IMG/VR virus record: IMGVR_UViG_3300036893_000013
Coordinates: 1 to 64,000 of that record
Source of the DNA: a virus
Length of the DNA: 64,000 bases
Reading direction: 5' to 3' (one strand)
Translations under genes and position numbers: made by a program
The notes under the pieces: model-generated
What the model was told of the DNA's origin: nothing
Database searches by the model: none
The model's input: the letters and a program-made list of their open reading frames with translations, nothing else
Shown here: piece after piece, positions 46,268-64,000 of the stretch
Numbering within the stretch: the first letter of the stretch is position 1
Layout: the number at the start of each line of letters is the position of its first letter

Positions 46268-49200
46268 CTAAAGCTCAACTTGAAAACCCCCAAAAATAGT
46301 AAGAGTAAATAACTCGTCTTGTGAGTTCGTTTCATCGAAGACACCCATTATCTGCATATGACGACATAAAATACTCTGCTTAGTCTGAGACATATAAAAT
46401 CTCTGATTATACAGAGAATCACTAGGGGGAAGTTGAGCAGGATCATTAGTCCAAAATACTAGATCATCGAAGGGGCCAGCAATTTCGCCTATCCGAACAC
46501 CCAATGATATAGGATGACTTCCCTGTATTCTTACGCAATCAGTAGTAATAAATTCTGCTGCGGCAACTTGACCCGGGTAGGCAAGAACCAAGCTTCCTAG
46601 AATAAAGTTGGCCGGGTAAGTACTTCCGTTGTCTTCCCAATTGGTATAATCACGGTAAAGAATAGGACCTGAATAAGTAGGGGGAGGAGCTATCAGAAGC
46701 TGAATATTACCGGGGGTTGTTTCTACGGACTGAATGGCCCCGCAACCTTCCACTATATTAGCCTTTAGACTCCATGTCATACTAATATTTTCTGGGGGAG
46801 CGGTTGGTGACAGTCTATACCATCCGGTGCTACCGTCGGCCACAAACAAGCACTGATCGTTGCTCCCATTAACATGCCAAGTTAAATAACTAGCAGATGG
46901 ATCAAACTGTTGCAATAGGTCTGCTATAGGAAACCCAACCTGACTTATTCCGGAATGTACATTCAGTTCCACTGTCTGTCTGTCTGTAGTCATGAAGTAC
47001 ATAATACTTCCATTTACAGTCAGAGCATTGTAGCTCAACAGACCTACTCTTTGAATAAGAGGTTCCGAAGTAAAAGGTTCTTGTGCAGTTCCGTTACCGG
47101 AAATAACATAAATATCGGAGACGGTGAAAATCAGCATACCAACATTCAATGGAACCATTCTCTTAACCAGAGAGGGGAACTCGGCATAGTTATTAGGGGC
47201 AAAACCGTTGTAACCATTTCCAATAGGGGTATCGGGTCCAGTACTCCAAAACACCGTGTTGTCAACTGATACAAATAAACGGTTATCTTGGAAGGCTAGA
47301 TTTATACTACTCTTAGGGGGAAGGGAGTTTTGTAAAGCTAACGGAGCTTCGAGAAGAGTATCTAGCCCCGAATCGAGAGTTGTATCTGTAAATCCTTGAG
47401 CTAAGTATTGAGATAAAGGAACGGTATACTCGGTGTTTCCGTTTCCGGAAGCTGGAGGGGGAATTAAATAATAAGTAGCACCACCATCATCTGTTCTGAA
47501 AATAGCAACATAATCTGCTTGAGGGTCAATAACTTGGGGCAATCCTCCGGAGATGAATACCCCGCTGGCCTCAAAGAAACTGCCCGTAGCGGGAGATACC
47601 AAACTCGCGTTTGATACAGTATCGTCTAGAGTATTAACAAGGGCAACGGCATAGCTCCAGCCGCCTTGTGTTGTGGTTAAGCTTCCGGTAGGAGTTACGC
47701 CTATAGGACCGTTGTTCATCCATACCAAGTTGGGTACGTCAGCAGTTAAACCGTATAGAGTTGTAGAGAAAGTGGGTTCGGCGGTACCGCTAATTCCGGC
47801 TTCATACGCAATCTCTTCATTCGAATTCTGGTCTACCACAAAAGGCTGGGTGGTTTGATTTACATCTGCTGTCCATCCAAAGGTAGATACCGGTCCTATA
47901 TTCCACCATGTGTAATTTCCAGAAGGTTCTATTACAGTAGGGTATGCTGGGGAATCTGTTTGTAGAGCAGAAAGAGTACTAGGCCAGTCCGGGAAGGTAG
48001 GAGAAGTCCCTCCAGTACATGCTATACCAGCGGGAATAACGTTGTAGTTTATAGTGCTTCCGGGAGGGGAATAGACCATATAGAAACTAATAGTATTGTT
48101 GGCGAATGGTAGAGCAGGCGAAGTAGTTGGAAGAGTTTCTCCTGACGTACTGTGGTACCATACGCCGTATTGAATCTCAGCCGGATAGACTCCGGCAGCA
48201 GGAAAAGTAACCTGAACAATACTTGATGCAATACTAAGACCAGAAGATGGGTAATTAGCACTCATGATCTTATATCCTTTGATCGGTGTGCCGGTAGAAA
48301 AGTTGTAAGTGTTAGGATTGCCGCTATTGTTCCAAGTCATAGGTCCAATTGCAGAAGGTACTAATGTAGCCCCTGAATCAGCGGTTCCTACGTCAGCCGC
48401 AGGACCATAGTTAGAATGATTAAGTGGTGCTGTGAATGTCATCCCAGAAACAGAATCAATACTAACTGTCTCTCCGTTGAGAAACGTAGCGTTAGATAGT
48501 CCGGCAAAAGTAAGCTGCACCCCAACGCTAACTAGAGAGGCTAGGGTTCTGTCGCACTGCACAGTTACTTCATTGTTATTAACAGTAATATTTGTTACAT
48601 TCAGAGATATAGACCCATTACCTATGCCCCAGAACATAGCTACTTGGTGACCAAACGTAAAAGTGTAAGTTCCCGGGGCCGGAATTATAAAGACCGGTAG
48701 CATGGCAATACTTAAATTTTCCATCGCAGAGGGAAACAGTGTGCTTAATGTGCCACTTAGTGTTCCATCTCCATAGCTAAAAACACCTACTTCGACCGCA
48801 TTAGTTCCGCCTTGAGCACTGAGAAAGAAGCTACTCATAGTACCACTACCAGTTGCTGTTGAGACAGGCTGAGTACCATTTTGGCTCATTGGAGTATTAA
48901 AAGTACTGCCCGGAGGTCCGTTAGGAAGCTCACCCGCCGCACCTACATCGCTATTCTTCTGACTATTACATTGCCAGTAATAGACAGGAAAGTTGCTTCC
49001 CTGAGTCATTATGCCCGTATAGGGTTGAAGCTGGTAAACACAGTTGGTCGATCCCGGAGTATCTTCAATGATATGTCCAGATGAATATATCGTATGAGCA
49101 GCCCAAGTAAGAGTGGTATCTGAATCGTTAGATAAGCACTTCCACTTGGCGGTTCCGTCTGTAGTAATCTGCCCGACAATAGTACTACTAGTAGTCCACG

Positions 49201-51667
49201 GCGCAGTACCCCCAGAAACCCCACTGTCTACTAACTGCTGAAGATACTTGCTACCACTAACAGTAATGATAATAAACTGCCATCTGTTGTAGTAAGTATT
49301 TGCTTTCCAACCAGATACGGCATTATTAACAATTACATTAGGAGCAGTGCTCCCCCCGGCCATTCCCCAGTTCCAGACAATACCCCCATCAACAGAACTA
49401 CCTCTGTTAATCCATAATGCAGACCCATCTATGGTAGTTGTACCTTCTGTTAATGGCCACTGAACAGCATTGTTTGCGGTATAACTAGATATCGGATTAC
49501 CCCCAGAATTAACTGTTGGAATCTCAAGATCAGTAGTCGGAGGATAATAGCTAGAACCCAAAGCAACTATATTTACCGTACATCCTGTACCAGATATACC
49601 GGCTGTAGTAGCAACACCATTTTCAGTAGAATATCCAGTTCCTACATCTGTTATCTGGATAGTAGCAACACCACCAGTTGACCCGGTTAAACTAGCTACT
49701 CTAAACTGTGCTGTCCCAGAAGTACCAGACTGAGTGGGGAATAACCTATCACCTATTGCATATCCAGTACCGGCAGTTCCCAGTGTTCCTGCTGTAATAC
49801 CTCCCACAAGAACTCCAGTTATATTTACAGTCGCCCCGGTCCCCGTACCGTTAGTAGTGGTGCTCACACCAGAAGCTACAGTGTAAGGCAGATACCCAGC
49901 GTTGTGAACTGTAAGACCAGTTATTGTAGTTCCCGATACCGTAGAGACTGTATAAGAGGCCCCGGCCCCCGAAACTTGTGTTGGATATACTAAATCTCCT
50001 ACATTATACCCAGTCCCTCCTGACCCCAAGGAAAAAGTGGCAATCTGTCCACCACTGACAGTAAGTATATTGAAGGTTGCTAAAGTACCTGTTCCAGAAG
50101 TAGTAGTAGCTAGTCCGGATGCAGCAGTATATCCAGTAAAACTAATTCCTTGATATACCAATCCTATGGTTGCGGGAATGCCATTAATACTCTCTACTAG
50201 AAAGACAGCCCCGGAAGCTGGAGAACCTACCGGAACCACTGGATATATAGCTTCTCCGACACTATATCCGGTACCACTTGCAGCTACCGAAGCAGAAGTT
50301 AGAGGACCGCCAGCATAGGTATTAGGAACTTCTGCGCTGAACTGAGTACCAGAGCTTACTATATTTACGGCTAATCCAGTACCAGAAGTAGCAGTAGTAG
50401 GGATATTAGTAGCTGAATAATAACCTTGTCCAGCAACCTGAATAGCAATTGCAGTCGCTACTCCGGTACATAATGTTACTCCTGTAACAGCACTAATCGA
50501 TACGGTAGCAACTTGAAAATAACCCCCTGAACCGCTAGTTTCTTCCGGAAAAATAAAATCTCCGACAGCATATCCAGTTCCCCCGACTGCTACAGTTGCC
50601 CCAGTTAAAGAACCTCCTGAAGTAGTTATATTAAGGGTGCAATTGACACCAATTCCAGACGTTGTGGTAGAGACATTACTACCGTTTATATACCCTGCTC
50701 CAGCAGAAGTTCCAACAGAAGTTACTTTAACTTGCCCATTCATACTCCCAGCCGGAGTAGTTTGGGAGAGAGAAACAATTTCCCCCACAGTATAACCTTG
50801 TCCACCGAAATATAGACTGGCAGTATTTATAGGACCAACAATATTCTCTATGGTTAAGGTTACACTCGTAGACCCCAAAACTTGAGTTACTAACGAATCT
50901 CCAGAAAAATAAAGTTGAAGACCAGATTGCAGTACTTGAGAGGCAGTTGGAAGGGGATTCGAATTAACATCTGTAGCCCGCATGGTAAACACAAAGGTCG
51001 AGTTATAAATGTAGAAACTAGACAACTGCACTACCGTTCCTATTAACTGTTCTACATTACCATTAGGATCAATGATGAAGGAGTTAAGTTCATAAGGAGT
51101 AAAATTGTACGGATTCAAGACAGCGTATAAGTTGCCGTTCGCTACTGCAATTTCTTGAAGAACAGTGGAATAAGGGATTCTCGTTTGAAGGGTATTAACC
51201 CATTTCTTCTGATTAGCTCCATCCCCCCAAAATAGAACGTTCCCCACACTCTGCATATAACTCTGTCCAGAATACGGACTTTTATTCCAGATATCTATCT
51301 GACCGTTATTTGAGGCATCATATAAGGCAGATTTGGTATCCACCATAGTTTTTATTTGTTCAGTATTAGCATTGAATAATCTAAACTCATAAAAACCATT
51401 TATATTACTCCACGTGTTACTATTCCACACGGAATTCCCCGGACGGCGAACCACTGTAAGTCGTTGGCTGAGTTCCAGATTTTCTCCCCCAAGAAAGGCA
51501 TCTCCTCTAGGCCCGTAAAATTTCTCTTCCAAACGGGTAGAAGCGGCATCTCGTATAGCTGCGCGGTTGCTCCATAGCCCAGTAGTCCATCTTGCCCCCT
51601 GATAAAGAGCAGACTTCCTAGAAGGGCGGGGAGGTTGGGCACCGGCTACTTGTAGAGGATTAGGCAT
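46268..51667 (-). CDS. Tail nozzle/tubular protein B-like with about 1100 aa of inserted repeat and adhesin domains
   Basis: N-terminal GENLELS..LTVVRRPG; C-terminal propeller-like FQDNRLF...VFWSTGPD...; central GxGYxVG(D/E) repeats. Confidence 0.65.
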   Translation of the reverse strand: MPNPLQVAGAQPPRPSRKSALYQGARWTTGLWSNRAAIRDAASTRLEEKFYGPRGDAFLGGENLELSQRLTVVRRPGNSVWNSNTWSNINGFYEFRLFNANTEQIKTMVDTKSALYDASNNGQIDIWNKSPYSGQSYMQSVGNVLFWGDGANQKKWVNTLQTRIPYSTVLQEIAVANGNLYAVLNPYNFTPYELNSFIIDPNGNVEQLIGTVVQLSSFYIYNSTFVFTMRATDVNSNPLPTASQVLQSGLQLYFSGDSLVTQVLGSTSVTLTIENIVGPINTASLYFGGQGYTVGEIVSLSQTTPAGSMNGQVKVTSVGTSAGAGYINGSNVSTTTSGIGVNCTLNITTSGGSLTGATVAVGGTGYAVGDFIFPEETSGSGGYFQVATVSISAVTGVTLCTGVATAIAIQVAGQGYYSATNIPTTATSGTGLAVNIVSSGTQFSAEVPNTYAGGPLTSASVAASGTGYSVGEAIYPVVPVGSPASGAVFLVESINGIPATIGLVYQGISFTGYTAASGLATTTSGTGTLATFNILTVSGGQIATFSLGSGGTGYNVGDLVYPTQVSGAGASYTVSTVSGTTITGLTVHNAGYLPYTVASGVSTTTNGTGTGATVNITGVLVGGITAGTLGTAGTGYAIGDRLFPTQSGTSGTAQFRVASLTGSTGGVATIQITDVGTGYSTENGVATTAGISGTGCTVNIVALGSSYYPPTTDLEIPTVNSGGNPISSYTANNAVQWPLTEGTTTIDGSALWINRGSSVDGGIVWNWGMAGGSTAPNVIVNNAVSGWKANTYYNRWQFIIITVSGSKYLQQLVDSGVSGGTAPWTTSSTIVGQITTDGTAKWKCLSNDSDTTLTWAAHTIYSSGHIIEDTPGSTNCVYQLQPYTGIMTQGSNFPVYYWQCNSQKNSDVGAAGELPNGPPGSTFNTPMSQNGTQPVSTATGSGTMSSFFLSAQGGTNAVEVGVFSYGDGTLSGTLSTLFPSAMENLSIAMLPVFIIPAPGTYTFTFGHQVAMFWGIGNGSISLNVTNITVNNNEVTVQCDRTLASLVSVGVQLTFAGLSNATFLNGETVSIDSVSGMTFTAPLNHSNYGPAADVGTADSGATLVPSAIGPMTWNNSGNPNTYNFSTGTPIKGYKIMSANYPSSGLSIASSIVQVTFPAAGVYPAEIQYGVWYHSTSGETLPTTSPALPFANNTISFYMVYSPPGSTINYNVIPAGIACTGGTSPTFPDWPSTLSALQTDSPAYPTVIEPSGNYTWWNIGPVSTFGWTADVNQTTQPFVVDQNSNEEIAYEAGISGTAEPTFSTTLYGLTADVPNLVWMNNGPIGVTPTGSLTTTQGGWSYAVALVNTLDDTVSNASLVSPATGSFFEASGVFISGGLPQVIDPQADYVAIFRTDDGGATYYLIPPPASGNGNTEYTVPLSQYLAQGFTDTTLDSGLDTLLEAPLALQNSLPPKSSINLAFQDNRLFVSVDNTVFWSTGPDTPIGNGYNGFAPNNYAEFPSLVKRMVPLNVGMLIFTVSDIYVISGNGTAQEPFTSEPLIQRVGLLSYNALTVNGSIMYFMTTDRQTVELNVHSGISQVGFPIADLLQQFDPSASYLTWHVNGSNDQCLFVADGSTGWYRLSPTAPPENISMTWSLKANIVEGCGAIQSVETTPGNIQLLIAPPPTYSGPILYRDYTNWEDNGSTYPANFILGSLVLAYPGQVAAAEFITTDCVRIQGSHPISLGVRIGEIAGPFDDLVFWTNDPAQLPPSDSLYNQRFYMSQTKQSILCRHMQIMGVFDETNSQDELFTLTIFGGFQVEL
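49560..50830 (-). repeat. Degenerate protein-level tandem repeats (GxGYxVG[DE]...GxGY...TTTxGxGTG) within the nozzle
   Basis: GGQGYTVGE, GGTGYAVGD, SGTGYSVGE, GGTGYNVGD, AGTGYAIGD, VGTGYST recur at roughly 80-100 aa spacing. Confidence 0.8.
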
Positions 51668-52884
51668 TAATGAATAGAACCACCTGAAATTTTTCCGTAA
51701 AGGCCACTATTAGTGGTGGCAGTGTTGATGGTATAAGCCCCATAAGAACTTACCGTTGAATCTGAAAGTGTACTTGTGCCTGCCACTACGTTAAGAGTAG
51801 TCACAGTACTATTGATAGTTATGGTATTACTTGATCCCGAAAGAGAGGTGCCGGTACTGCATCCGGTTCCCGCGCCGTTTGTTACTGGAGTTGTGCCATT
51901 CTCCGTATAACACATAATTGTAGTTCCAGAATTTGAGTTAGAACAGGTAACTGTTATGGAAGAACTTGAGACACCAGACCCGGGAGTACAGGTAGGAGCA
52001 GTTGCATTTCCACCGCTGTTCACGGTGTAACTGAAGTTATAAACCCAAAGAGGTCCGACTGTATTTCCATCAGTTCCAGCCGTAAGACCCACATAAGCTG
52101 TGTTCATGCTGCCGACGATTGACGGAATGTTAACGCTAGTCCATACATTATGAAAGCAAGTCGAAGAAGAGGTTGGAGTACACGTTCCTCCAGCAGTAAT
52201 ATCATAGAGATTTAGAGTGAAATTTGAACCATCATAAATAACTGTGGCCGAATAAGTGTCTCCAGTCGTGGTGTTAACGGTCGTGGCTGGAGAATTTAAT
52301 GGTACCGGAGAGGTACTGATCTTACTAGGAGTGTAGTCCGAGTTATACGGAGGAATACAAGGAGACTGACTAGCTTGATAAATCTGAGCACTGCTGTAAC
52401 TGAATGGAAAGGGCCACACAGCACTAGATGACAGTGTACTGATCTGATCGAGTTCTAGAGCAAAAACATTATTAGGTTCGGGAGGTACGAAAGCTTGATA
52501 AAATCCACCTTCGCATCCGGCCCCGGCAACGAAGGTCTGTCCTTGTGCTCCTCCCAGATTGTTCGTATTGTTCAGAGTGAAAGCAATATTGACACCGTTT
52601 GGTACGAAGGTAAAAGTAGAGGTAAAAGCTTGTACATTAACGGCGTAGTAATAAATCAAACTTGAAGACCCATGCCCGGCTCCGTTAGGCTGCAAAAGAA
52701 TATTACTACTTGAAACACTTGAATCTGAGTTATTGAAAAACTGGAAACCCGGATTTCCATATTGCTGTACACTACACGTTCCAGATGTCGCAGCAATCCA
52801 GTTTCCTTGTGTGCAACTGAATATTGACTGCGCCGAAACAAGGGAACTGAAGCAAATAATGCCAAGAATGAGTAGTATTTTCAT
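51667..52884 (-). CDS. Signal-peptide protein: L-type (legume) lectin-like domain plus chitobiase/FN3-associated domain
   Basis: MKILLILGIICFSSLVSA|Q; VNVQAFTSTFTF, FALELD, YSATVIYDGS, AYVGLTAGT; APTCTP.SG...CYTENGTTP. Confidence 0.72.
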   Translation of the reverse strand: MKILLILGIICFSSLVSAQSIFSCTQGNWIAATSGTCSVQQYGNPGFQFFNNSDSSVSSSNILLQPNGAGHGSSSLIYYYAVNVQAFTSTFTFVPNGVNIAFTLNNTNNLGGAQGQTFVAGAGCEGGFYQAFVPPEPNNVFALELDQISTLSSSAVWPFPFSYSSAQIYQASQSPCIPPYNSDYTPSKISTSPVPLNSPATTVNTTTGDTYSATVIYDGSNFTLNLYDITAGGTCTPTSSSTCFHNVWTSVNIPSIVGSMNTAYVGLTAGTDGNTVGPLWVYNFSYTVNSGGNATAPTCTPGSGVSSSSITVTCSNSNSGTTIMCYTENGTTPVTNGAGTGCSTGTSLSGSSNTITINSTVTTLNVVAGTSTLSDSTVSSYGAYTINTATTNSGLYGKISGGSIH

Positions 52885-54309
52885 TTACTGTATTGTTGTG
52901 CCAGAATTATATACATCACCGGAGTTAAATGCACTAGCAGAGACACACCCGGGGGTTACAAGTCCGGTTGGTAAATTGGTGGAACATAGCCACTGCGGAT
53001 AGAGCGGATCATACCGACTAGTATTTGAGACTGTCTGATAGCCGTATGCTGCTGCTACAGAAGTTGGGGTAAAATTAGAAATTAGTGTAGCCATACACGC
53101 TACGGTACTCGCATACGAAGAACAAGATGGTGCTCCCGGAACTGTTGGATTACTAAACGAAACGGCTGTTCCGATGGTATTATTAGGACCATAAGCAAAT
53201 GATCCTGAAGTATAAATTATAGTATTGTTTCCACTTACTCCCGAAGCATATGTGCTGTACAAATGATCGGTCGCATTTCCGTTGCCGACAGCCATCGCGT
53301 AGATCGCATTACCACCAAGACCCGTAGCTGTCGATGTCTGGAGAAGGTTGTTCCAAGCCTGCACATTGTAAGCTGAATAAAGAAATAGTTCTCCAACATC
53401 TGTGCGATTTTGATGTGTATCCCGAAGATTACCCCAAGAGGTATTGTAAAGCATATACACATTACCTAGCGAAGAACCCACTGAATTATAAGGCACTTCA
53501 AGGCCGCTGCTGCCGTTCCCTACAGTAATATTGTTTTGTACAACGACTTGTTGAGAATATGGAGTACCACTCGACTGGGAATAATCTAATGAATCTACGA
53601 TAATTCCTTCTCCATCTGTTGAACCTCCTCCATTACAGGTGGCAGGATCATAGTTGGCATAAGAAAAATTACCCGCAATATAGATATGAGTGCCGGGACT
53701 GGTGTCTTTAGCAAGAGGTTGATAGACACTTATACCACTATAACAGGCAGTATTTCCCTGAGCAGCGTTATAAACTATATCCCCTACAATTGCAATGTAA
53801 TCTACCGAGTAGCTAGTACCGTCATTAAATGTGGAAAATCCACCTCCAATACAGCCGTTAGCTATATCGTCAACAAAGGCAACATCGTACACTTCTGAAG
53901 GTGTAGTTTGATTAGGGGAGGCCATAAAGCATCCTATGTATTGCTGAGGAGCAGAAGAACCCTGAACTTCCCACCCAGCAATCATCCAATGCGGCTTATC
54001 TACCCAGAAGTAGCCCGTAGAACCACTAATGATACAGGCATCAAAGGTGGTACATTTAAGAGTGGCAAAACAGTGGCCTGACCCAGTAACCGCGCCCCAT
54101 TCCCCTTGCCAGAAGTTCCACCCGCTATACGAAGAAGAAGCAGCGGCTGTGATTATATCACCACAATTAACGGCATGGTTTGGACTGAGCCAAGGTGTTC
54201 CGGTAGAGGTTCCGTTATTTGAGTCACTTCCCGACGGCGACAGATAGTAGTTTGTCGCAAAACAGGGAATGGCAAACAGAGATATAAATATTAGAAGATA
54301 TCTTATCAT
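52885..54309 (-). CDS. Signal-peptide protein: right-handed parallel beta-helix (pectate-lyase-like)
   Basis: Start MIRYLLIFISLFAIPCFA|TNYYLSPSGSDSNNGTS..TPW (TAATG overlap at 54309); Asn-ladder coils IAGNFSYAN, TDGEGIIVD, VQNNITVGNG, YNTSWGN. Confidence 0.75.
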   Translation of the reverse strand: MIRYLLIFISLFAIPCFATNYYLSPSGSDSNNGTSTGTPWLSPNHAVNCGDIITAAASSSYSGWNFWQGEWGAVTGSGHCFATLKCTTFDACIISGSTGYFWVDKPHWMIAGWEVQGSSAPQQYIGCFMASPNQTTPSEVYDVAFVDDIANGCIGGGFSTFNDGTSYSVDYIAIVGDIVYNAAQGNTACYSGISVYQPLAKDTSPGTHIYIAGNFSYANYDPATCNGGGSTDGEGIIVDSLDYSQSSGTPYSQQVVVQNNITVGNGSSGLEVPYNSVGSSLGNVYMLYNTSWGNLRDTHQNRTDVGELFLYSAYNVQAWNNLLQTSTATGLGGNAIYAMAVGNGNATDHLYSTYASGVSGNNTIIYTSGSFAYGPNNTIGTAVSFSNPTVPGAPSCSSYASTVACMATLISNFTPTSVAAAYGYQTVSNTSRYDPLYPQWLCSTNLPTGLVTPGCVSASAFNSGDVYNSGTTIQ

Positions 54310-56504
54310 TAGTTGTGCGCCATCATTCCAATCTGGTTGCCTGACCCCCACGATGCTGTTGGAATAGTGATTGTTGACGGTAGTTGCCCGTTTGTGGATG
54401 TTTGACTTACAGGCTGACTGGCATTATATGGGGTGAAACCTTTCCACTCTTCGTCAAGATTAAGAACAGTGGCATTTCCGGTTACCGCCATATAATAATA
54501 CTGACCGGCTGCTGGAGCAGTTAAAGTTACAGGGGAAGATTGGGTAATTGCCTGATCCCATTGACCAGTATGAGTTATGGCTACACCTTGAGAACCGGAA
54601 CCAATATCAGCAACTAGAGGGCAACTTGTTCCACCTAGAGCACAAGGACCATAAATACCTATGTCGTAGTAATGTCCAGAAGTAGTGTCATCAGTAGAAA
54701 CTTGGAAATCTAGATAAGAAATTTTCTGAGCGGTCGCTGGCCCGTTTACGATTACCCAAGTATAAACAGTTCCAGCAGTTCCTACTCCGAAACTTCCCTG
54801 ACTGGTTGAACCCATTGAAATGGGCCAGATAGAAGCAGAAGTGGAACTTCCGCTAGCACAGTTTGCCACATAAGCATCTGTTGCAATATCAGTGTTACTT
54901 GCACAAGATTGTGTCGGAGCGGTAGGAGTTCCTGTAAGAGCAGGAGAAGCAGCAAGTACAACGTTGCCAGTACCAGTACTTGATACATACCCAATTGCCG
55001 ACCATCCGCTAGATGGAGTACCTGCGGTCATGAACTGGGTTCCGGAAGGAGCAGTTGTACTCGGTTGCCATCCGTAAGCAGTAGCAGAAGTCGAGGAGAA
55101 TCCACCAATAGCGAAGTCGTGTGTAGGGATAGTTTGATTTGTAGTGTTACCACCTAAATACATCATACCGGCATCTCCAGAAGGGGGAGCAGAACCAATT
55201 GGTCCAGCGGAAGCTGTAATACCTCCGCTACCGGCGTATGTTAAGGTATTAGCAGTTGTTGCCCCATCATCGAGGTTAGAATCCCCACTAACCGTGCTAC
55301 CAGTTGACGAATACCATGTAATATGACCAGCATTTCCACTACTAACCGTGCCCCCGCCTCCCACAAAAGTACATGTGGATATTGCACTAGAAGGAGTTCC
55401 GCAGCTTAAAAGTGGTGTCGAATTGGTGGGTCCAGTAGCTGGTAGCTGGAGAGCATAAGCTGTAAAAGAAGCTGACGAGGGTCCCATAAATCCAGTGGTA
55501 TTCGAAGTAACGGCCTGATTTGCTGTATTGCCTATAAGAGAAATATATCCAGAATGCACACCGTCTGAAGTCGCTGAAACACCAGAACTAAAAGCCGCAG
55601 AAGTACCAGTAAGTGCTCCGGTTAAAGTGCCTCCTGTAAGAGGAAGATCGAGAGTGGCACTGTTAGCCACACACGAGGCGCAAGTACCAGTTAAGTTGGT
55701 AATTACTCCGGAAGCGGGAGTTCCTAACGCAGGAGTGATAAGGGTAAGATTGGTTGCACTCAATCCACTAGGAAGAGTTGTGCTTTCGGAGGGAACTCCG
55801 CTGCCGTTAGTACTTACAACTGCATTATTTACAGGAGTAACTCCAGCCAAAGCCGAAGTAGTACCTGCGCTATATACGATTGAATTAGTAGCTAAGTTAG
55901 CAAGAGTACCGAGATTTGCTGCTGTTGCTGCGGTTGGACCCGCACTTGTTGAATCAAATTGAAATCCGGAAATAGCCGATCCACCTACTTGAGATACTGT
56001 TCCTGTTTGTGTATACCACGTAACATCGTATTGGGGTTCAGCGGTTACTGTTCCTGATCCGGAAGGAGTTTGGCAAGCTCCATCTCCTCTGAGATACGTA
56101 GAGGAACTACAAGTTCCCGACCATAACCCATACACATCCGCTGCGACTGCTATAGAAGGTACACCGGTAGTTGTAGTATTTTTTAAAATACCTGTTCCAA
56201 GGCCGGACAGAAGGGTTCCGTTAATACCTTTTACAGTAGTAGCACCCCCTGTAGAAGTACTGACAGCATCGCCAGTAAGGGCATTGAAGGTACCACTTCC
56301 ACCAAAAGCTGTCCATGTGTTTGTTGCAGAACAGTAGTATGGAGATTCAATCCCACCAGAAAGCAGGTAGAAATTAATCACAGGACTACTAACCGAGCAA
56401 GTCGCGGGGAGACTAGAACCACTACCGTAACTTACAACTCCGCTTTGTGGTCCCGTCTGCGCGAGAGCGGGGAGTGCGAAAAATAAAAATAAGAGTTTTT
56501 TCAT
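54309..56504 (-). CDS. Tail-fibre-like protein with a cleavable signal peptide
   Basis: MKKLLFLFFALPALA|QT; fibre motifs TPALGTPASG, LPLTGGTLTGALTG, GTGNVVLAASPALTGTPTAPT...IATDAYV; globular C-terminal tip. Confidence 0.7.
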   Translation of the reverse strand: MKKLLFLFFALPALAQTGPQSGVVSYGSGSSLPATCSVSSPVINFYLLSGGIESPYYCSATNTWTAFGGSGTFNALTGDAVSTSTGGATTVKGINGTLLSGLGTGILKNTTTTGVPSIAVAADVYGLWSGTCSSSTYLRGDGACQTPSGSGTVTAEPQYDVTWYTQTGTVSQVGGSAISGFQFDSTSAGPTAATAANLGTLANLATNSIVYSAGTTSALAGVTPVNNAVVSTNGSGVPSESTTLPSGLSATNLTLITPALGTPASGVITNLTGTCASCVANSATLDLPLTGGTLTGALTGTSAAFSSGVSATSDGVHSGYISLIGNTANQAVTSNTTGFMGPSSASFTAYALQLPATGPTNSTPLLSCGTPSSAISTCTFVGGGGTVSSGNAGHITWYSSTGSTVSGDSNLDDGATTANTLTYAGSGGITASAGPIGSAPPSGDAGMMYLGGNTTNQTIPTHDFAIGGFSSTSATAYGWQPSTTAPSGTQFMTAGTPSSGWSAIGYVSSTGTGNVVLAASPALTGTPTAPTQSCASNTDIATDAYVANCASGSSTSASIWPISMGSTSQGSFGVGTAGTVYTWVIVNGPATAQKISYLDFQVSTDDTTSGHYYDIGIYGPCALGGTSCPLVADIGSGSQGVAITHTGQWDQAITQSSPVTLTAPAAGQYYYMAVTGNATVLNLDEEWKGFTPYNASQPVSQTSTNGQLPSTITIPTASWGSGNQIGMMAHN

Positions 56505-56507
56505 ATT

Positions 56508-57617
56508 TTAGTATCCGTAGTAATAGCCGTAATTAAAGGGACTTGCAGGACCAACAGGATAGAACGGACCTAAAACAGAATCTCCGGACATTTGCGTATC
56601 GGGGAAAATACTCCATGCCTGTTCTTCCCTCTCTCCTGCTCTTATAGCTTGCTCAATTTGTTCATGCCACATCTGATTCTGCATAGCTGCGCGGGGGGAA
56701 TTAGCATGTTGAAGGCATTTAGCAACAAATCCTTCCCGGAAAAGATAAGCTAAATCATCTGGAACTGGAGAAATAGTCTGGTCTAAATACTTGAATCTAG
56801 GTGCTCTACGTTGGTAAACAATCCAAAATAACCAAGTAAATCCGCCTTCAGCAGGCAGAGGATTTACTCTTATAGCAAAGCCATTAGGATTAGCTACTGT
56901 CCAAGTAAGAGTACCGTCAGGTACCGTAGTACCCGGGGGCGAGGCGGGAGGAAGTTCCGGAGCAGTAGAACCCGAAGTTCCAAAATTAGCACCCGTACTG
57001 TTATAGGGATTAGGTGTCGGTAAAGGAATATTAGTCCCTTGATATCCTTGAACATTAGGAGTAAGGCCCATGATAGAAGTGTCTAGGAATAGCATGTTCC
57101 CATTAGCATCTACGATTTGTTGAATAGGAGTTTGCGGAGAACCAGAAGTACCATATCCGCAGTTGTATACTGTATTAGCAGTCCAAGTACCAAAATTACA
57201 CTGGTTATTAGGTATAAAGCATACTATACTGGGATTTCCCTGATAAGGAGTAAGTCCCATGTCTCTATTAGTTTCCATAAGAAACAGTGGTTTTGGACAG
57301 AGATTGCCTGTATTAGTGTTATTATTGATATCAATTCTAAATGCTGACGTTAGCCAGCCCACGTCAGTTAGATTAGTAATATAGTCTTGCTGTAGAGAAT
57401 TAGATAAGAATAAGGGAACATAAGACGCATTCCATCTCCAATTCAAACCTTGCGATAGAATTTTTTGAAGAACATCGTTAGCGAAGGTCAGCGCTGGTTC
57501 AAAAGTATAGCCACCCGCAGGAAGAATTGGATTACACTCAGAAAAACTTCTAGCATAATCAACTACTTCCTGTAGGGTTATAGAGCTAGGTGGAACTAGA
57601 TTTGGAAGAACAGGCAT
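56508..57617 (-). CDS. Tail adaptor/tubular protein A-like with inserted module
   Basis: ITLQEVVDY...ANDVLQKIL...WRWN; C-terminal RVNPLP...YQRRAP...VPDD; no signal peptide. Confidence 0.6.
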   Translation of the reverse strand: MPVLPNLVPPSSITLQEVVDYARSFSECNPILPAGGYTFEPALTFANDVLQKILSQGLNWRWNASYVPLFLSNSLQQDYITNLTDVGWLTSAFRIDINNNTNTGNLCPKPLFLMETNRDMGLTPYQGNPSIVCFIPNNQCNFGTWTANTVYNCGYGTSGSPQTPIQQIVDANGNMLFLDTSIMGLTPNVQGYQGTNIPLPTPNPYNSTGANFGTSGSTAPELPPASPPGTTVPDGTLTWTVANPNGFAIRVNPLPAEGGFTWLFWIVYQRRAPRFKYLDQTISPVPDDLAYLFREGFVAKCLQHANSPRAAMQNQMWHEQIEQAIRAGEREEQAWSIFPDTQMSGDSVLGPFYPVGPASPFNYGYYYGY

Positions 57618-61200: not shown

Positions 61201-62511
61201 CTGACTTGAAACGGTTATATTTGCCAACTGCTGAATACTTTGAGTTGCAGAAGTAATGGTTGGCGTAAGAGTCGTGAACGTCGGGGCGTTCGTGATGTTG
61301 AAAACTTGGGAGAGCGAGGACCCGGTGTAGTTAGTCGCGATGATGACCAGTGTGTTTGAAGAAGTTTGTTGATACGCTGAAACTGTAACTCCGCTTTGCG
61401 GGTTGTGCGTAGCACTAATACGGTAGTAGCCGGGTCGAACGAATTTGCTGTACTGTGCTAATACGTAAGCCCTATCTGCAACCGCATATCCGCTTGCAGC
61501 ATTGGCTATAAGCGAGCCGTTGCTTGTTGTTCCTGCCCCTCCAGCCTGATTGAAGTCGATTAGCTGCCAGAAAAGCCACATGTTAGCTCCATCTTGCATC
61601 CGCTGATCGATGATCGCACCCCAACACAAACCGTCTGAAATCGTGGCGGTGAAGCTTGAATACGAACCGCACGCCGGACCATAGCTGGGACCTTGTGATG
61701 CTTCTGTTTCCCACCATTTCTTTCCGCTTGCCCAACCCGCAGGATAAGTGGCAGGACTTACTGGAGGTACTCCACCAGAAAGAAAAGCATCGTAATCGTG
61801 CCAATCTGCGACTCCAAGATAAGTCGTGCAGGAGGGGTCTGTACCGCAAGTTCCACCACTCGATGATACCGCACTGTACTGGTAAGAAGTGGGCATGAGG
61901 ATTAGTGCCGGGATGCTTTGGGAAGCGAAGGTCGGTCCTAGATTAGTTTTGATAAAAGTATCGATGTTTCCCGAAGACCATAAGGCACTGTCATACGTCT
62001 CGCATTCTTCAGGCTCGTTTTGGACTCCCATTCCGTATAACTGAATACCATAGTAGGTCGAGAGGCTTTTGTAGAAGTTTGCGCCCCAGATTGCGTAGTC
62101 GCCGTAATGTCCAGATGCAAGTGCTCCTGAACCGGGATTACATATTGTGCTGTTATTGGTGGTATATATGGCGGGCGGGGACCAAGGATGAGAGATAATT
62201 CTCACGTTTTGAGATGCAGCGTACTGCAAGTCGGCAATTACAGATCCAGCGCATCCAGAATTAACAGTCGTACAACTTTGGCCGGGACCATCCTGATGGC
62301 CATTAGTCTGCCCTATCCGCAAAACTGACAAACCGAGTTGCCCTGTTCCATTTCCGAAGAAAAATTGCTGGTGTGCATTAGACATGGAAGTAGTCCAGCC
62401 TTCGTTCGAACCACCGAAGCCATCGATTATCTGGGCTGGGGCAGTCCAGTTGATGGTGGCCTGTCCAGCAAGCGAGAGCGGAAAGAGCAGCAGAAGTATA
62501 AGTCTTTTCAT
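58294..62511 (-). CDS. Signal-peptide multidomain protein: GH30 glycoside hydrolase, three InlB-B-like repeats, beta-helix-like domain, chitobiase-type domain
   Basis: Start MKRLILLLLFPLSLAG|Q (TAATG overlap at 62511); QIIDGFGGS, LGLSVLRI, PWSPP, QNEPE (acid/base), WWETE (nucleophile), QYSKFVRPGYYRI, SITTFV. Confidence 0.82.
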   Translation of the reverse strand: MKRLILLLLFPLSLAGQATINWTAPAQIIDGFGGSNEGWTTSMSNAHQQFFFGNGTGQLGLSVLRIGQTNGHQDGPGQSCTTVNSGCAGSVIADLQYAASQNVRIISHPWSPPAIYTTNNSTICNPGSGALASGHYGDYAIWGANFYKSLSTYYGIQLYGMGVQNEPEECETYDSALWSSGNIDTFIKTNLGPTFASQSIPALILMPTSYQYSAVSSSGGTCGTDPSCTTYLGVADWHDYDAFLSGGVPPVSPATYPAGWASGKKWWETEASQGPSYGPACGSYSSFTATISDGLCWGAIIDQRMQDGANMWLFWQLIDFNQAGGAGTTSNGSLIANAASGYAVADRAYVLAQYSKFVRPGYYRISATHNPQSGVTVSAYQQTSSNTLVIIATNYTGSSLSQVFNITNAPTFTTLTPTITSATQSIQQLANITVSSQSFTYTIPAQSITTFVSTGSTPTNYSLVVTATNGTISGANCATGTYASGTSIGPCTFTPSAGYTFSSGWSGTGSCSGVSGTGTASCTLSSNATLSASGTSTGCGNYTAASCNQSDVNSAINGPAHIACNGDIISIPAGTCTWTTDVVVTASIDITGPNAGANTGTSTFGSGSNTLTIKSNNPSGPIWFLQPTYNGTSNVTKLESMNLDPINGSTSLGGVVFIEGTSTSAGFPQVRVDNIGFGISTQWTESGNGDNTVDMIRVDDAIGVVDHSTLPTGSLSNHLYTAQMSSYLGVGQFGDNSWAQPDSFGGLTNWFAENNQVNLNGSTFNDCTEAGITVNQSGGCRVVNRFNHSIGYNAFAYTAVHGTDSTGRPRSGRHTETYGNVLTCTLNCGDAVVSFRGGTGIAFGNTGISSGGAYFNQIMDGTTYRIALANPFFGTCGGLTSIDPGDTVDNVTYVSSTLTGGGTTTITDTSKSWTTNQWAPYGAPYFFYDTTQSFGAQITSNTNNTLTMYAEINNGASYNPGDTYKIIRATVCEDQWGRGQGAYISGAAVPTPTAPMNEVLDPAYEWDDTITPASFLGQQFGTNYAGQTIQNRDFYTDDWKAGGLSGPTAQTSTTVPFNGSTTCNAGSGNYTCGVGFGALANRPSSCTTGVGYWATDQGNWNSSGNGFGQGELFKCTSTNTWTIAYIPAQYPHPLIGGSTLVSLTVSTSGSGTGTITGTNSLTGSYTSGTTIGPLTATATGGSTFAGWTVSGNAACSGTTNPCPSFVLTTATTVTATFTGGTSTCGNPYQNPPNYSGTYSTPPVSVSWTSPTSGCSMFMTLDGSAPTCSSPAYAAQSFSTTTTMRVIACQAGYTSSAVEGGTWVITSGVSLTTIASNGYITGTNCATASYVSGTLIGPCTPVANPGYAFSGWSGASGSAVCVGTINPCPQFSLNQASTFTANFSSVPLPPPIGLSGNLIAKQVQLK

Positions 62512-64000
62512 TATTGTAAAGCCACACTCACGTTGATGAAATTTTCCGTGGTCCCAGTCGTCCATGTTGGGGTATAGAGTCCCGCTGATGCCTGCGTATA
62601 ATGACCTCCCGCTTGGGTGGCTCCTGCCGAATTGGTTGCGTTTATATCGAACGAAAAAGGAGATGGAGCACTAAGAGCTACCCCAGCCCCTATTCCAATG
62701 AACGTGAGGACTAGAGAATTTGCTGCGGTAGTAGTAAGGGAAGAACCTGTACAACTGGACGAGCAGGAGGCCGTGCCGTAACTGGACAGCACGATCCCTG
62801 TTGTCGTGGCATTTGATATCTGTTCTAAGACTCCACCCATCCCAGCATAAGAAGTTGAGGTTCCTGATACTGTGACCGTACAAGAACCGGTGACATTTGC
62901 AACCCCTGTCCAGATTGACTGGCCCGAGGACCCGGTGGTTGGTGAACCCTGTGCAGTCCAAGTGGGTACACAACCTGAAGGCGTGTTCCATGCTGTAACG
63001 TTAATTCCAAGACCCCAAAGTACCAGCGTATTTCCAGTCGTGATTGATAATGTGACCGTGCTAGACGGATTTACACTGTAGGCTCCTACCACACCAGCAG
63101 CAGATACAAAAGTCGGATTACCGCCCCCTCCACCTGATCCTCCACCAAGCACAATCCAAGTTCCGGAAGACCCATTACAAGCAACGAAAGCAAAATTTGA
63201 TCCGCCACTAACATAAGTAGCACCAGAAATAGCGGATGTTGAATCTGTAACTGTTGCGGTGGGCCAAGGTTGAGACATGCTACTGCTACAAGTAGGAATA
63301 GGATTTGATGAGGCATTGCCAGCGGTGTATGATATGACACCGGGACCTGTACCAGCTATAACTACAGGAACATGGGCAGTCAGATCACCACTGTTGGTAA
63401 TATTGTAATCGAAGGGTAGATATGAAGTGGCTGTTGTAGCTGTAGCCGCCATAACTCCATACCCGGCAATTTGGCCGGTAATAGAACCTGCGGGAGTACA
63501 CCACGTACCGTTACCACACCAGACAGTTGAACCAGAGGCTCCGGTTCCCCCATTAAAATTAGCTATTTGTAGATTTCCTGTAACTCCACCAGCACCCGTC
63601 CCAGCTAGGTTAATTGCGGGAATAACCGAGGAGTTCAACAATCCACTTGAAAGCTGTGGAATGTCTGAGCCTGAATTACCGACAGTATAACTTGTTCCCC
63701 ACCCAGAACCAGTTGAGTTTGCAAGTCCGGCCCCGGGGTAGGTTGAAGAGGCGCAAGAAGAACAAGAAATACTAATACCTAAAGCAGTGGTGGTAATAGA
63801 AAGGGGAGAGTTGGCAGTAATATTTGTGCCTATATAGCTACCCAGATCATATAGTTGAGGAGCTATTAGACTTCCGGTAGGTTCTTCTCCTAGAAAATAA
63901 GCATGTCCAGTAGTGGTCTGGCCCGATACATAGGATGTAGTGTTAGCGCTGGACTGATAAGGAATAGAGCCTAAACTACCCCCAGCTAGTCCTCCGGCAT
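62511..64000 (-). CDS. Tail-fibre-like Gly/Ser/Thr-rich protein; 5' end lies beyond the window
   Basis: Frame has no stop up to 64000 (...GGSLGSIPYQSSANTT...CSSC...YPGAGLANSTGSGWGTSY...NFNGGTGASGSTVWCGNGTW). Confidence 0.7.
   Translation of the reverse strand, partial: AGGLAGGSLGSIPYQSSANTTSYVSGQTTTGHAYFLGEEPTGSLIAPQLYDLGSYIGTNITANSPLSITTTALGISISCSSCASSTYPGAGLANSTGSGWGTSYTVGNSGSDIPQLSSGLLNSSVIPAINLAGTGAGGVTGNLQIANFNGGTGASGSTVWCGNGTWCTPAGSITGQIAGYGVMAATATTATSYLPFDYNITNSGDLTAHVPVVIAGTGPGVISYTAGNASSNPIPTCSSSMSQPWPTATVTDSTSAISGATYVSGGSNFAFVACNGSSGTWIVLGGGSGGGGGNPTFVSAAGVVGAYSVNPSSTVTLSITTGNTLVLWGLGINVTAWNTPSGCVPTWTAQGSPTTGSSGQSIWTGVANVTGSCTVTVSGTSTSYAGMGGVLEQISNATTTGIVLSSYGTASCSSSCTGSSLTTTAANSLVLTFIGIGAGVALSAPSPFSFDINATNSAGATQAGGHYTQASAGLYTPTWTTGTTENFINVSVALQ

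What the first reader, a model, noticed from the sequence alone, without database searches (positions are those of the whole stretch)
54309..56504. Classical tail-fibre shaft repeats behind a signal peptide
Seen: MKKLLFLFFALPALA|QT is followed by motifs typical of trimeric phage fibres (SPALTGTPTAPT...IATDAYV near 54870-54950, LPLTGGTLTG, TPALGTPASG) and a globular tip. No N-terminal virion-anchor domain is recognisable. Inference: this is the strongest single sign that the exported proteins are structural rather than captured host enzymes.
Basis: partly seen in the sequence, partly recalled or inferred. Interest (0 to 1): 0.8.

Follow-up and report, generated by a model that had tools for sequence, protein, structure and literature searches.

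The report
Exported fibre-like protein in phage tail operon
A soil phage encodes, inside its tail-gene operon, a tail-fibre-like sugar-binding protein that carries a genuine bacterial export signal and paired cysteines, so it most likely folds outside the cytoplasm where phage tails are normally built; whether it ever joins the virus particle is unresolved.

Summary
The 731-aa ORF (54309-56504, minus strand) is real. Its N-terminus is a canonical Sec/signal-peptidase-I signal (MKK, 11-12 hydrophobic residues, ALA|Q). The public gene call starts at an internal GTG (codon 42) and misses it.

"Shaft repeats" is overstated: there is one copy of the classical fibre repeat, plus mosaic shaft modules and a jelly-roll tip whose closest folds are phage virion proteins (Z 10-12).

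The genome is a 112-kb podovirus-like phage whose nearest cultured relative is acidobacterial phage Tunturi_3. The gene is translationally coupled between an adaptor gene and the nozzle gene.

New evidence that export is real: among viral ORFs sharing the shaft module, signal-bearing ones are Cys-rich (1.33% vs 0.22%, p=5e-8) and keep the module's Cys pair (11/12 vs 1/7).

The module occurs in at least 150 viral contig stretches and in 0 of 301 sampled Acidobacteriota genomes, so it is phage-lineage, not captured host DNA.

The block is absent from a close relative (adaptor 85% identical), so it is accessory. Virion incorporation is unproven (about 30%).

The scan has noted the same phenomenon on other genomes. 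The closest published analogue is the Bdellovibrio MAT fibres.

The parts
54309..56504 (-). Whole CDS, 731 aa plus stop (stop codon at 54309-54311)
   Evidence: ORF list; 100% match in own genome, no internal stops; junctions
56460..56504 (-). Signal peptide, residues 1-15: n-region MKK, h-region LLFLFFALPAL, cleavage site ALA|Q. No lipobox Cys and no twin-Arg.
   Evidence: Sequence read directly. Conserved in homologues. Gln is the first polar residue after the h-region in 9/11 signal-peptide-like N-termini of this phage.
56295..56459 (-). Conserved N-terminal domain directly after the signal peptide, residues 16-70, with Cys36/Cys58 pair (ends ...PYYCSATNTW)
   Evidence: 9 IMG/VR loci match residues 1-86, all directly behind a signal peptide. 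L116 SP716 has 40/62 identities, score 230 vs 37+-7 for shuffles. The Cys pair is kept in 10/13 signal-peptide-bearing aligned segments and 0/1 without.
56040..56294 (-). Shaft module A, residues 71-155 (LTGDAVSTSTGGATTV..INGT...YLRGDGACQTP), with Cys132/Cys144 pair; the most widely shared part
   Evidence: Up to 115 BLAST alignments (HSPs) from the 119 homologues cover it. AF2 pLDDT 76-92. At least 150 viral stretches, 0/301 Acidobacteriota genomes. Cys pair kept in 11/12 signal-bearing vs 1/7 signal-less viral ORFs.
54948..56039 (-). Mosaic middle shaft, residues 156-519, with Cys275/278 and Cys368/378 pairs; contains TPALGTPASG (257-266) and LPLTGGTLTG (287-296)
   Evidence: Patchy 35-70% matches to different homologues. 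Residues ~440-510 fold with pLDDT 68-85; the rest is not modelled as a monomer.
54858..54947 (-). Single copy of the classical phage tail-fibre repeat, residues 520-549 (SPALTGTPTAPT..IATDAYVANC), here with an added Cys534/Cys549 pair
   Evidence: More than 100 representative proteins match only this stretch, with 4-23 copies each. Those examined have no signal peptide and 0-3 Cys and are phrog_454/2631/7032 tail fibre proteins. The target has 1 copy.
54312..54857 (-). C-terminal jelly-roll tip domain, residues 550-731, with conserved Cys621/Cys628 loop (YGPCA..SCPLV)
   Evidence: About 28 relatives, always C-terminal, most with signal peptides. AF2 pLDDT >90 in the core, pTM 0.75. Matches 9jwb_Z at Z 12.2, Bxb1 tail tip at Z 10.5, phi812 baseplate at Z 10.4. 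36 BFVD hits at E<1e-3.
56508..57617 (-). Upstream neighbour: 369-aa adaptor-like protein without signal peptide (homologue of Tunturi_3 gp12, paralogue of the SU10-type adaptor)
   Evidence: 34% identity over the full length to gp12; paralogy with the 244-aa adaptor; TAA-AAT-ATG junction to the target
52885..54309 (-). Downstream neighbour: signal-peptide protein of 474 aa from the ATG that overlaps the target's stop (TAATG)
51667..52884 (-). Next downstream gene: 405-aa signal-peptide protein, abutting the previous stop (TAAATG)
46268..51667 (-). 1799-aa nozzle-like protein without signal peptide (homologue of Tunturi_3 gp19 with an insertion of about 650-700 aa); its start overlaps the stop of the 405-aa gene (TAATG)

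Best explanation
The gene encodes a phage-lineage, fibre-like glycan-binding protein that is exported by Sec rather than kept in the cytoplasm. Proposed course, with steps marked shown or inferred. (1) It is transcribed and translated late with the tail genes: it is translationally coupled in the chain adaptor-like gene > target > two more signal-peptide genes > nozzle (junctions shown; timing inferred). (2) The N-terminal signal peptide takes it through SecYEG and signal peptidase I cuts after Ala15, exposing Gln16, which may cyclise (inferred from sequence and conservation). (3) In the oxidising periplasm six close Cys pairs form disulfides, and the chain folds, probably as a trimer, into an N-domain, a mosaic shaft and a jelly-roll tip (Cys pairing with signal peptides shown statistically; trimer inferred). 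(4) It then acts outside the cytoplasm as an accessory adhesin or lectin, in the manner of Bdellovibrio MAT fibres. It is either held on the envelope of the infected cell through its conserved N-domain or set free at lysis, and it binds host surface or matrix polysaccharide alongside the neighbouring exported enzymes (GH30; a probable beta-helix protein). That could mask or clear receptors and matrix for the progeny. It is an accessory cassette in the fibre slot of a Tunturi_3-like podovirus, not a core virion part.
For: Canonical signal peptide, conserved: 84/119 homologues, 9/9 viral N-domain relatives, L116 SP716. Export-linked chemistry: in 60 de-duplicated viral ORFs (at least 200 aa) carrying shaft module A, signal-bearing ones have median Cys 1.33% vs 0.22% (Mann-Whitney p=5e-8), and the module's Cys pair is present in 11/12 vs 1/7 (Fisher p=0.0017). 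The target has 12 Cys in 6 close pairs. Classical cytoplasmic fibres with the same repeat have 0-3 Cys and no signal peptide. Fibre or lectin nature: mosaic modules shared with proteins bearing Collar, S74, Mtd_N, K1-lyase_C, pectate-lyase and GH43 domains; the tip is a jelly-roll like phage virion-surface domains and, more weakly, CBMs. Accessory status: the slot is empty in L121/L120 (adaptor 85%, nozzle 68% identical) and holds only a GIY-YIG-like ORF in L118/L119/L117. The N-domain occurs on unrelated backbones (tape-measure-type L012; others) with no adaptor-family partner within 10 kb. Stand-alone 'signal peptide plus tip' proteins of 190-334 aa exist. Published precedent for the architecture signal peptide + conserved N-domain + mosaic trimeric shaft + variable tip, displayed on the producer's surface: MAT fibres (PMC10769870).
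Against: No experiment and no trained signal-peptide predictor was available. The gene sits in the canonical fibre slot and is translationally coupled to core tail genes. L116 has the same N-domain with a different distal part at the same position, which is the classic anchor-plus-swappable-tip pattern of virion fibres. This phage and its relatives L121 and L118 show no full-size signal-less fibre in the tail module, whereas Tunturi_3 has them. How a periplasmic protein would reach the cell surface is unknown. Eight exported genes take up about 16 kb of the late operon, which is costly for pure accessories.
Confidence: 0.45

Rival explanations
1. True virion fibre that matures outside the cytoplasm. 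The protein is exported, cleaved and disulfide-bonded in the periplasm. It docks through its conserved N-domain onto fibre-less particles (adaptor ring or another fibre) only when holin and endolysin action mixes cytoplasm and periplasm, or after release.
For: It lies in the fibre slot between adaptor and nozzle with TAATG/TAAATG coupling. The same N-domain carries a different distal part directly after the 83%-identical adaptor in L116. In this phage, L121 and L118/119 no full-size signal-less fibre was found in the tail-module regions examined. The SP601/SP676-type N-domain is conserved at 47-61% across the clade with variable C-termini. A homologue sits right after the tape-measure, tail-assembly and tail-tip genes in L012. 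Shaft and tip are of phage virion type.
Against: I found no tailed-phage precedent for it in the literature searches. The slot is empty in L121, so the target is dispensable for this virion. The N-domain does not co-occur with any shared adaptor-family partner on other backbones. The nozzle carries an extra ~650-700 aa in the signal-only phages compared with Tunturi_3, which offers another receptor-binding candidate. Assembly after mixing would be diluted.
Confidence: 0.3
2. Ordinary cytoplasmic tail fibre. The hydrophobic N-terminus is not used for export during infection (for example because Sec is shut down late) or serves another role, and the protein assembles on the tail in the cytoplasm like any fibre.
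For: Genomic position and fibre-like modules. The database gene caller chose a start downstream of the hydrophobic segment.
Against: The internal GTG has no Shine-Dalgarno-like motif upstream, and residues 1-41 are conserved in homologues. The signal peptide is canonical and co-varies with Cys content and with the module's Cys pair, which is hard to explain without an oxidising compartment. The h-region is too short for a membrane anchor.
Confidence: 0.1
3. Host-derived adhesin captured by the phage (a moron or lysogenic-conversion surface protein unrelated to tail function).
For: A signal peptide with Gln after the h-region matches the habit of a sampled Acidobacteriota genome (19/43). One cellular genome (G180) encodes a 2289-aa signal-peptide protein with the same tip, next to a large signal-peptide protein. 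The genome has an integrase.
Against: Shaft module A was found in 0/301 and the tip in 1/301 sampled Acidobacteriota genomes, against at least 150 viral stretches. The nearest ESM-Atlas clusters are mostly viral (weak evidence). There are no flanking promoter or terminator gaps; the gene is coupled to tail genes.
Confidence: 0.08

Closest known systems
Bdellovibrio bacteriovorus MAT (mosaic adhesive trimer) fibres (Caulton et al. 2024, PMC10769870)
   Same: The order of parts is the same: signal peptide, a conserved domain immediately after it, a mosaic phage-fibre-like shaft, and a variable C-terminal binding tip (some relatives end in Peptidase_S74). The protein is extracytoplasmic.
   Different: MAT proteins are encoded by the cell, not by a phage tail operon. 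Their N-domain is about 130 aa, whereas here it is about 55 aa with a Cys pair. No sequence similarity to solved MAT tips was detected. Surface display and trimer state were not tested here.
Classical phage tail fibres built of SPxLxGxPTAPT...IATTAFV repeats (phrog_454, phrog_2631, phrog_7032)
   Same: The target contains the repeat (residues 520-549) just before the tip, as in many fibres. The shaft is rich in Gly, Ser and Thr.
   Different: One copy here versus 6-22. Those fibres have no signal peptide and almost no Cys. The target reaches no PHROG threshold.
Tail fibres gp15 and gp18 of Tunturiibacter phage Tunturi_3 (PP885686.1; PMC11924767)
   Same: Same genomic slot between the gp12/gp13 adaptors and the gp19 nozzle in the nearest cultured relative (portal 36% identical).
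   Different: The Tunturi_3 fibres lack signal peptides and show no detectable sequence similarity to the target.
Jelly-roll tips of phage virion proteins: cyanophage A4 chain 9jwb_Z, mycobacteriophage Bxb1 and Douge central fibre, phi812 baseplate protein
   Same: Same fold as the target's tip (VIA Z 12.2, 10.5, 10.4; Foldseek E 1.6e-5 to 8e-3).
   Different: Sequence identity is 8-18%. None of those proteins is known to carry a signal peptide. The target's tip has a conserved disulfide loop.
Signal-peptide proteins obeying the Q-rule in Porphyromonas gingivalis phages (Matrishin et al. 2023, PMC10367356)
   Same: Phage genes with Sec signal peptides that expose an N-terminal Gln, read as adaptation to the host's secretion system.
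   Different: Those are proteins of unknown function, not fibre-like proteins in the tail slot. The host phylum also differs.

Membership tests
Sec / signal peptidase I substrates | Tripartite N-terminus: basic n-region, 7-15-residue hydrophobic core, small residues at -3 and -1; no lipobox; no twin-Arg | tested here: met
   MKK / LLFLFFALPAL / A-L-A|Q, read. No Cys at +1 and no RR.
Sec / signal peptidase I substrates | The signal is conserved in homologues and linked to extracytoplasmic chemistry | tested here: met
   84/119 homologues. 9/9 viral N-domain relatives. Cys content and the Cys pair co-vary with the signal peptide.
Sec / signal peptidase I substrates | Demonstrated translocation and cleavage | not testable with these tools
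   No SignalP-type predictor or experiment was available.
Classical repeat-type phage tail fibres (phrog_454/2631/7032) | Array of several tandem SPxLxGxPTAPT...IATTAFV repeats giving a significant family match | tested here: not met
   One copy. No PHROG hit at E<=0.01. No Pfam hit at E<=10.
Classical repeat-type phage tail fibres (phrog_454/2631/7032) | Cytoplasmic protein with a signal-less N-terminal virion anchor | tested here: not met
   The N-terminus is a signal peptide followed by a Cys-pair domain.
MAT superfamily (Bdellovibrio) | Signal peptide followed at once by a conserved beta-rich N-domain | tested here: inconclusive
   The arrangement is the same, but the domain is about 55 aa rather than about 130 aa. 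No MAT N-domain sequence was on hand to compare.
MAT superfamily (Bdellovibrio) | Mosaic shaft with swappable C-terminal tips | tested here: met
   Homologues match only single modules. The tip recurs on proteins of 164-927 aa. L116 has the same N-domain with a different distal part.
MAT superfamily (Bdellovibrio) | Intertwined trimer displayed on the producer's surface | not testable with these tools
   Only monomer AF2 was available. The full-length model is poor (pLDDT 51).
Virion-attached podovirus fibre (SU10 / Tunturi_3-type tail) | Encoded in the fibre slot between the adaptor and nozzle genes | tested here: met
   Synteny with Tunturi_3; junctions.
Virion-attached podovirus fibre (SU10 / Tunturi_3-type tail) | N-terminal domain that co-occurs with its docking partner across relatives | tested here: inconclusive
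   Same N-domain after the same adaptor in L116. But the slot is empty in L121, and the N-domain occurs on other backbones without this adaptor family.
Virion-attached podovirus fibre (SU10 / Tunturi_3-type tail) | Physically present in purified particles | not testable with these tools
   No proteomic or structural data exist for this uncultured phage.
Phage jelly-roll receptor-binding tip domains | C-terminal beta-sandwich fold shared with solved phage virion-surface domains, standing above generic CBM matches | tested here: met
   Z 12.2 / 10.5 / 10.4 for phage proteins vs 6-7 for CBMs. Foldseek E 1.6e-5. 36 BFVD hits.

The most novel reading that the evidence does not exclude
In this phage and a wide set of uncultured soil phages, the host-recognition fibres are made as Sec substrates. 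They are cleaved and disulfide-bonded in the periplasm, and they join DNA-filled, fibre-less particles only when lysis mixes the compartments. That is a two-compartment assembly route that I found described for no tailed phage.
Probability: 0.3. Interest if true: 0.9.

Novelty: new variant of a known kind. Interest (0 to 1): 0.6.

Why it matters
Tailed-phage virions are taken to assemble wholly in the cytoplasm. A large viral gene pool of fibre-like proteins that carry export signals and signal-linked disulfide pairs, and that sit in tail-fibre slots, points to one of two things: a two-compartment assembly route, or a class of phage-secreted adhesins and lectins that act on the host envelope or matrix. 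Either would change how receptor-binding proteins are predicted from metagenomes, since these proteins are missed or mis-started by gene callers, as here. It would also affect how such proteins should be expressed (periplasmic, oxidising conditions). The signal/Cys co-variation gives a simple sequence rule for separating the two kinds of fibre. The question is directly testable by virion proteomics on Tunturi-like isolates.

Tried and rejected
- Pfam and PHROG scans of the target found no family, even at E<=10.
- phmmer against PDB gave only biased 21-bit hits to a GDSL lipase, dismissed as compositional. Profiles of alignments A1 and A2 against PDB found nothing.
- tblastn against 50,697 phage records found nothing.
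- The full-length AF2 monomer was poor (pLDDT 51), and neither Foldseek nor VIA-align found a match. This is uninformative for a probable trimer.
- I first took Gln at +1 as a Bacteroidota marker (Q-rule, PMC5837995) and then rejected that as diagnostic: 19/43 signal-peptide-like N-termini in 400 kb of an Acidobacteriota genome also have Gln first, and about half of the late genes have Shine-Dalgarno-like motifs.
- My first cleavage-site heuristic cut inside h-regions and was replaced.
- The signal/Cys comparison on the database hits was not decisive, because many 'no-signal' hits are fragments. It was redone on viral loci.
- Small ORFs upstream of N-domain homologues were tested as a shared docking partner: no BLAST similarity. 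An adaptor-family HMM found no adaptor in those loci.
- BLASTP with composition adjustment failed to report the 65%-identical N-domain of L116 SP716. A plain Smith-Waterman alignment with a shuffle control showed it. Other BLAST negatives in this report may therefore be too strict.
- T9SS C-terminal sorting domain: nothing in Pfam.
- Alternative internal start giving a signal-less isoform: no Shine-Dalgarno-like motif before GTG42.
Full report
**The object.** The minus strand of 54309-56504 holds one uninterrupted 731-aa ORF (100% self-match with no stops).

- Its ATG lies 3 nt after the stop of the upstream 369-aa gene.
- Its stop overlaps the ATG of the next gene (TAATG).
- That gene abuts the following one (TAAATG), which in turn overlaps the start of the 1799-aa gene (TAATG).
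- The database copy of this protein (P0001, 690 aa) starts at an internal GTG, codon 42, with no Shine-Dalgarno-like motif before it.
- Residues 1-41 are conserved in relatives, so the ATG is the true start and the public gene call misses the signal peptide.

**The genome.** The window is the first 64 kb of a 112,037-bp IMG/VR virus record estimated 98% complete.

- The plus-strand half encodes replication and nucleotide functions: NAMPT-like enzyme, RNA ligase, PolA, UvrD, primase-helicase, an RNR with an intein, RecA, PNKP and an integrase.
- The minus-strand late operon encodes TerL, an SU10-type portal, the major head protein and an SU10-type adaptor.
- The nearest cultured phage is Tunturiibacter phage Tunturi_3, a podovirus of an acidobacterium (portal 36% identical over 83% of the query; PMC11924767).
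- Synteny: the 244-aa protein corresponds to gp13, the 369-aa protein to gp12, and the 1799-aa protein to the gp19 nozzle-like protein with an extra ~650-700 aa. A 121-aa ORF (45623-45988) corresponds to gp14 and the N-terminus of fibre gp15.
- In Tunturi_3 the slot between adaptors and nozzle holds signal-less fibres. Here it holds eight ORFs with signal-peptide-like N-termini, five after the 244-aa adaptor and three, including the target, after the 369-aa adaptor.

**Anatomy of the target.**

| Residues | Part | Evidence |
|---|---|---|
| 1-15 | Canonical Sec/SPase-I signal: MKK, an 11-residue core with a Pro, ALA\|Q. No lipobox, no twin-Arg. | |
| 16-70 | Small domain with a Cys36/Cys58 pair. 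It recurs directly behind signal peptides in nine other IMG/VR contigs and in L116. | |
| 71-155 | The most widely shared shaft module, with the Cys132/Cys144 pair. | up to 115 BLAST alignments; pLDDT 76-92, |
| 156-519 | Mosaic shaft that matches different homologues piecewise. | |
| 520-549 | One copy of the classical fibre repeat. | |
| 550-731 | Jelly-roll tip. | |

The twelve cysteines form six close pairs.

**Is it 'classical shaft repeats'?** Only in part.

- The exhaustive search with residues 518-731 found more than 100 representative proteins that match only the repeat and carry it 4-23 times.
- Those examined have no signal peptide and 0-3 Cys, and they are strong members of tail-fibre PHROGs (E down to 1e-208).
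- The target has one copy and reaches no Pfam or PHROG threshold.

**The tip.**

- About 28 representative proteins share the tip, always at the C-terminus. Most start with signal peptides, and several are small 'signal plus tip' proteins.
- With their alignment, AF2 gives a confident beta-sandwich (pTM 0.75, core pLDDT >90).
- The best structural matches are phage virion proteins: cyanophage A4 chain 9jwb_Z (Foldseek E 1.6e-5; VIA Z 12.2, 171 aligned residues), the Bxb1 tail tip (Z 10.5) and the phi812 baseplate (Z 10.4). These stand above generic carbohydrate-binding modules at Z 6-7.
- In BFVD, 36 viral models match at E<1e-3. Many are C-termini of collagen-repeat fibres and actinophage minor tail proteins.

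**Is the signal peptide functional?** No predictor or experiment was available, so I looked for independent sequence evidence.

- 84 of 119 homologues have such an N-terminus, and 72 of those have a small residue followed by Gln after the core.
- The stronger test used viral loci that share shaft module A. After de-duplication there were 23 signal-bearing and 39 signal-less ORFs, of which 23 and 37 are at least 200 aa.
- Median Cys content was 1.33% against 0.22% (Mann-Whitney p=5e-8).
- Where the alignment covers both positions, the Cys132/Cys144 pair is present in 11/12 signal-bearing against 1/7 signal-less ORFs (Fisher p=0.0017). The single signal-less exception is a 1994-aa, 32-Cys frame whose start is doubtful.
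- So the same phage module exists in a cytoplasmic, Cys-free form with classical fibre N-termini and in a signal-bearing, disulfide form. That fits real export to an oxidising compartment.

**Phage or host origin?**

- Module A was found in at least 150 IMG/VR stretches and in 0 of 301 sampled Acidobacteriota genomes. The tip was found in 1 of 301.
- Relatives combine the module with Collar, Peptidase_S74, Mtd_N, K1-lyase_C, pectate-lyase-like, GH43 and GDSL domains.
- The nearest ESM-Atlas clusters are mostly viral, but they score below 0.9 and are only a lead.

**Is it a virion part?** The evidence pulls both ways.

For:
- The slot and the translational coupling.
- L116, whose adaptor is 83% identical, has directly after it a 716-aa signal-peptide protein with the same N-domain (40/62 identities; score 230 vs 37±7 for shuffles) but a different distal part. 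That is the classic anchor-plus-swapped-tip pattern.
- In the siphovirus-like L012 a homologue follows the tape-measure, tail-assembly and tail-tip genes.
- This phage, L121 and L118/119 show no full-size signal-less fibre in the tail module.

Against:
- In L121/L120 (adaptor 85%, nozzle 68% identical) the adaptor gene runs straight into the nozzle gene. In L118/119/117 the slot holds only a GIY-YIG-like ORF. The target block is therefore dispensable for this virion type.
- L116 also has Cys-free, signal-less fibre-like proteins in the slot (948 and 224 aa), so signal-bearing proteins can add to ordinary ones rather than replace them.
- The N-domain occurs on unrelated backbones with no shared small upstream partner and no adaptor of this family within 10 kb.
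- The signal-only phages all have the long nozzle, which offers another receptor-binding candidate.
- Literature searches found no exported tail fibre of a tailed phage.
- The nearest reports are Q-rule signal-peptide proteins of unknown function in Porphyromonas phages (PMC10367356) and the cell-encoded MAT fibres of Bdellovibrio, which have the same order of parts and are surface-displayed (PMC10769870).

**Host.** Gln after the hydrophobic core (9/11 signal-peptide-like N-termini in this phage) is not diagnostic of Bacteroidota. In 400 kb of an Acidobacteriota genome, 19/43 such N-termini also have Gln first. The Q-rule paper did not analyse that phylum. Taken with the Tunturi_3 relationship and a Bryobacteraceae MAG contig carrying a relative, an acidobacterial host is the best guess. 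It is not established.

**Verdict.**

- Observation: partly confirmed.
- The protein is a Sec-exported, disulfide-stabilised, phage-lineage fibre-like lectin carried as an accessory cassette in the fibre slot.
- I put about 0.45 on an extracytoplasmic accessory role (MAT-like display or release at lysis), about 0.30 on a virion fibre that joins after export, about 0.10 on an ordinary cytoplasmic fibre, and the rest on host capture or something else.
- Earlier notes of this scan describe the same phenomenon on other genomes, and later checks priced the exported-virion reading at 6-30%. My estimate rests on the tests above, not on those notes.

Noticed in passing
window 56379-56504: The database gene call for this protein (P0001, 690 aa) starts at an internal GTG (codon 42) and so drops the signal peptide and part of the conserved N-domain. 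Automated calls may systematically hide signal peptides on such phage proteins.
   Followed up: yes
L016-L035 (400 kb of Acidobacteriota genome G180) and the whole phage genome: Gln is the first polar residue after the hydrophobic core in 19/43 signal-peptide-like N-termini of an Acidobacteriota genome and in 9/11 of the phage. A Q-rule-like habit may therefore extend beyond Bacteroidota. This rests on a heuristic and on one genome.
   Followed up: partly
window 46268-51667: The nozzle-like 1799-aa protein carries about 650-700 extra residues compared with Tunturi_3 gp19 (1136 aa), with repeated ~70-aa units holding a GGxGYxVGD-like motif. The long form is present in every clade member examined whose nozzle is seen whole (L118/119, L121/L120); these lack signal-less fibres in the regions examined. 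In L116 and L117 the nozzle is cut by the contig end. It may be a receptor-binding candidate.
   Followed up: partly
window 45623-45988: A 121-aa ORF is homologous to Tunturi_3 gp14 and to the first ~90 residues of fibre gp15 only. It looks like a stand-alone copy of a fibre N-terminal (anchor-like) domain and is conserved in L118 and L121.
   Followed up: partly
L118:11133-12023, L116:11321-11878: GIY-YIG-like ORFs (N-terminal ...YGIIYFALNK.../...GHIYLIENK...) sit in or beside the adaptor-nozzle slot in relatives. Homing endonucleases may help turn over this slot.
   Followed up: no
L028:3927-16337 (G180 chromosome): The one cellular hit to the tip is a 2289-aa, 41-Cys signal-peptide protein. 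It is followed by a 1647-aa signal-peptide protein whose mature N-terminus (..TYYVSSSSGSDLNAGT..) resembles that of the gene after the target (NYYLSPSGSDSNNGT). The pairing of a tip-bearing fibre with a probable beta-helix protein is thus the same as in the phage.
   Followed up: no
window 52885-54309: The 474-aa signal-peptide protein downstream has an N-terminal motif that I recall as typical of right-handed beta-helix polysaccharide lyases and hydrolases. Pfam and PHROGs gave no hit, so this rests on memory only.
   Followed up: no
window 62511-64000 and L002:511-4346; L118:5936-8536; L121:2607-6487: A second type of post-signal N-domain (..SAQRWNTA..) is shared by the 676-aa and 601-aa paralogues. 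It is conserved at 47-61% in clade relatives directly after the 244-aa adaptor, with divergent C-termini.
   Followed up: partly
window 29264-32971: The class II-like ribonucleotide reductase is interrupted by an intein with a LAGLIDADG endonuclease domain (Pfam Intein_splicing, LAGLIDADG_3).
   Followed up: no
window 349-2730 and 10255-11208: The phage encodes a 793-aa NAMPT/NAPRTase-like enzyme and a tyrosine integrase within the replication module, so it may be temperate.
   Followed up: no
L003:4444-5273 (genome 86444-87273): Two further small proteins with signal peptides and Gln at +1 (119 aa with a PT repeat, and 143 aa) lie outside the tail operon. They may belong to the lysis or envelope functions.
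   Followed up: no
method note: target vs L116:3845-5935: BLASTP with composition-based adjustment failed to report a 65%-identical 62-residue N-domain match that a plain local alignment with a shuffle control shows clearly. BLAST negatives on these Gly/Ser/Thr-rich proteins are unreliable.
   Followed up: yes
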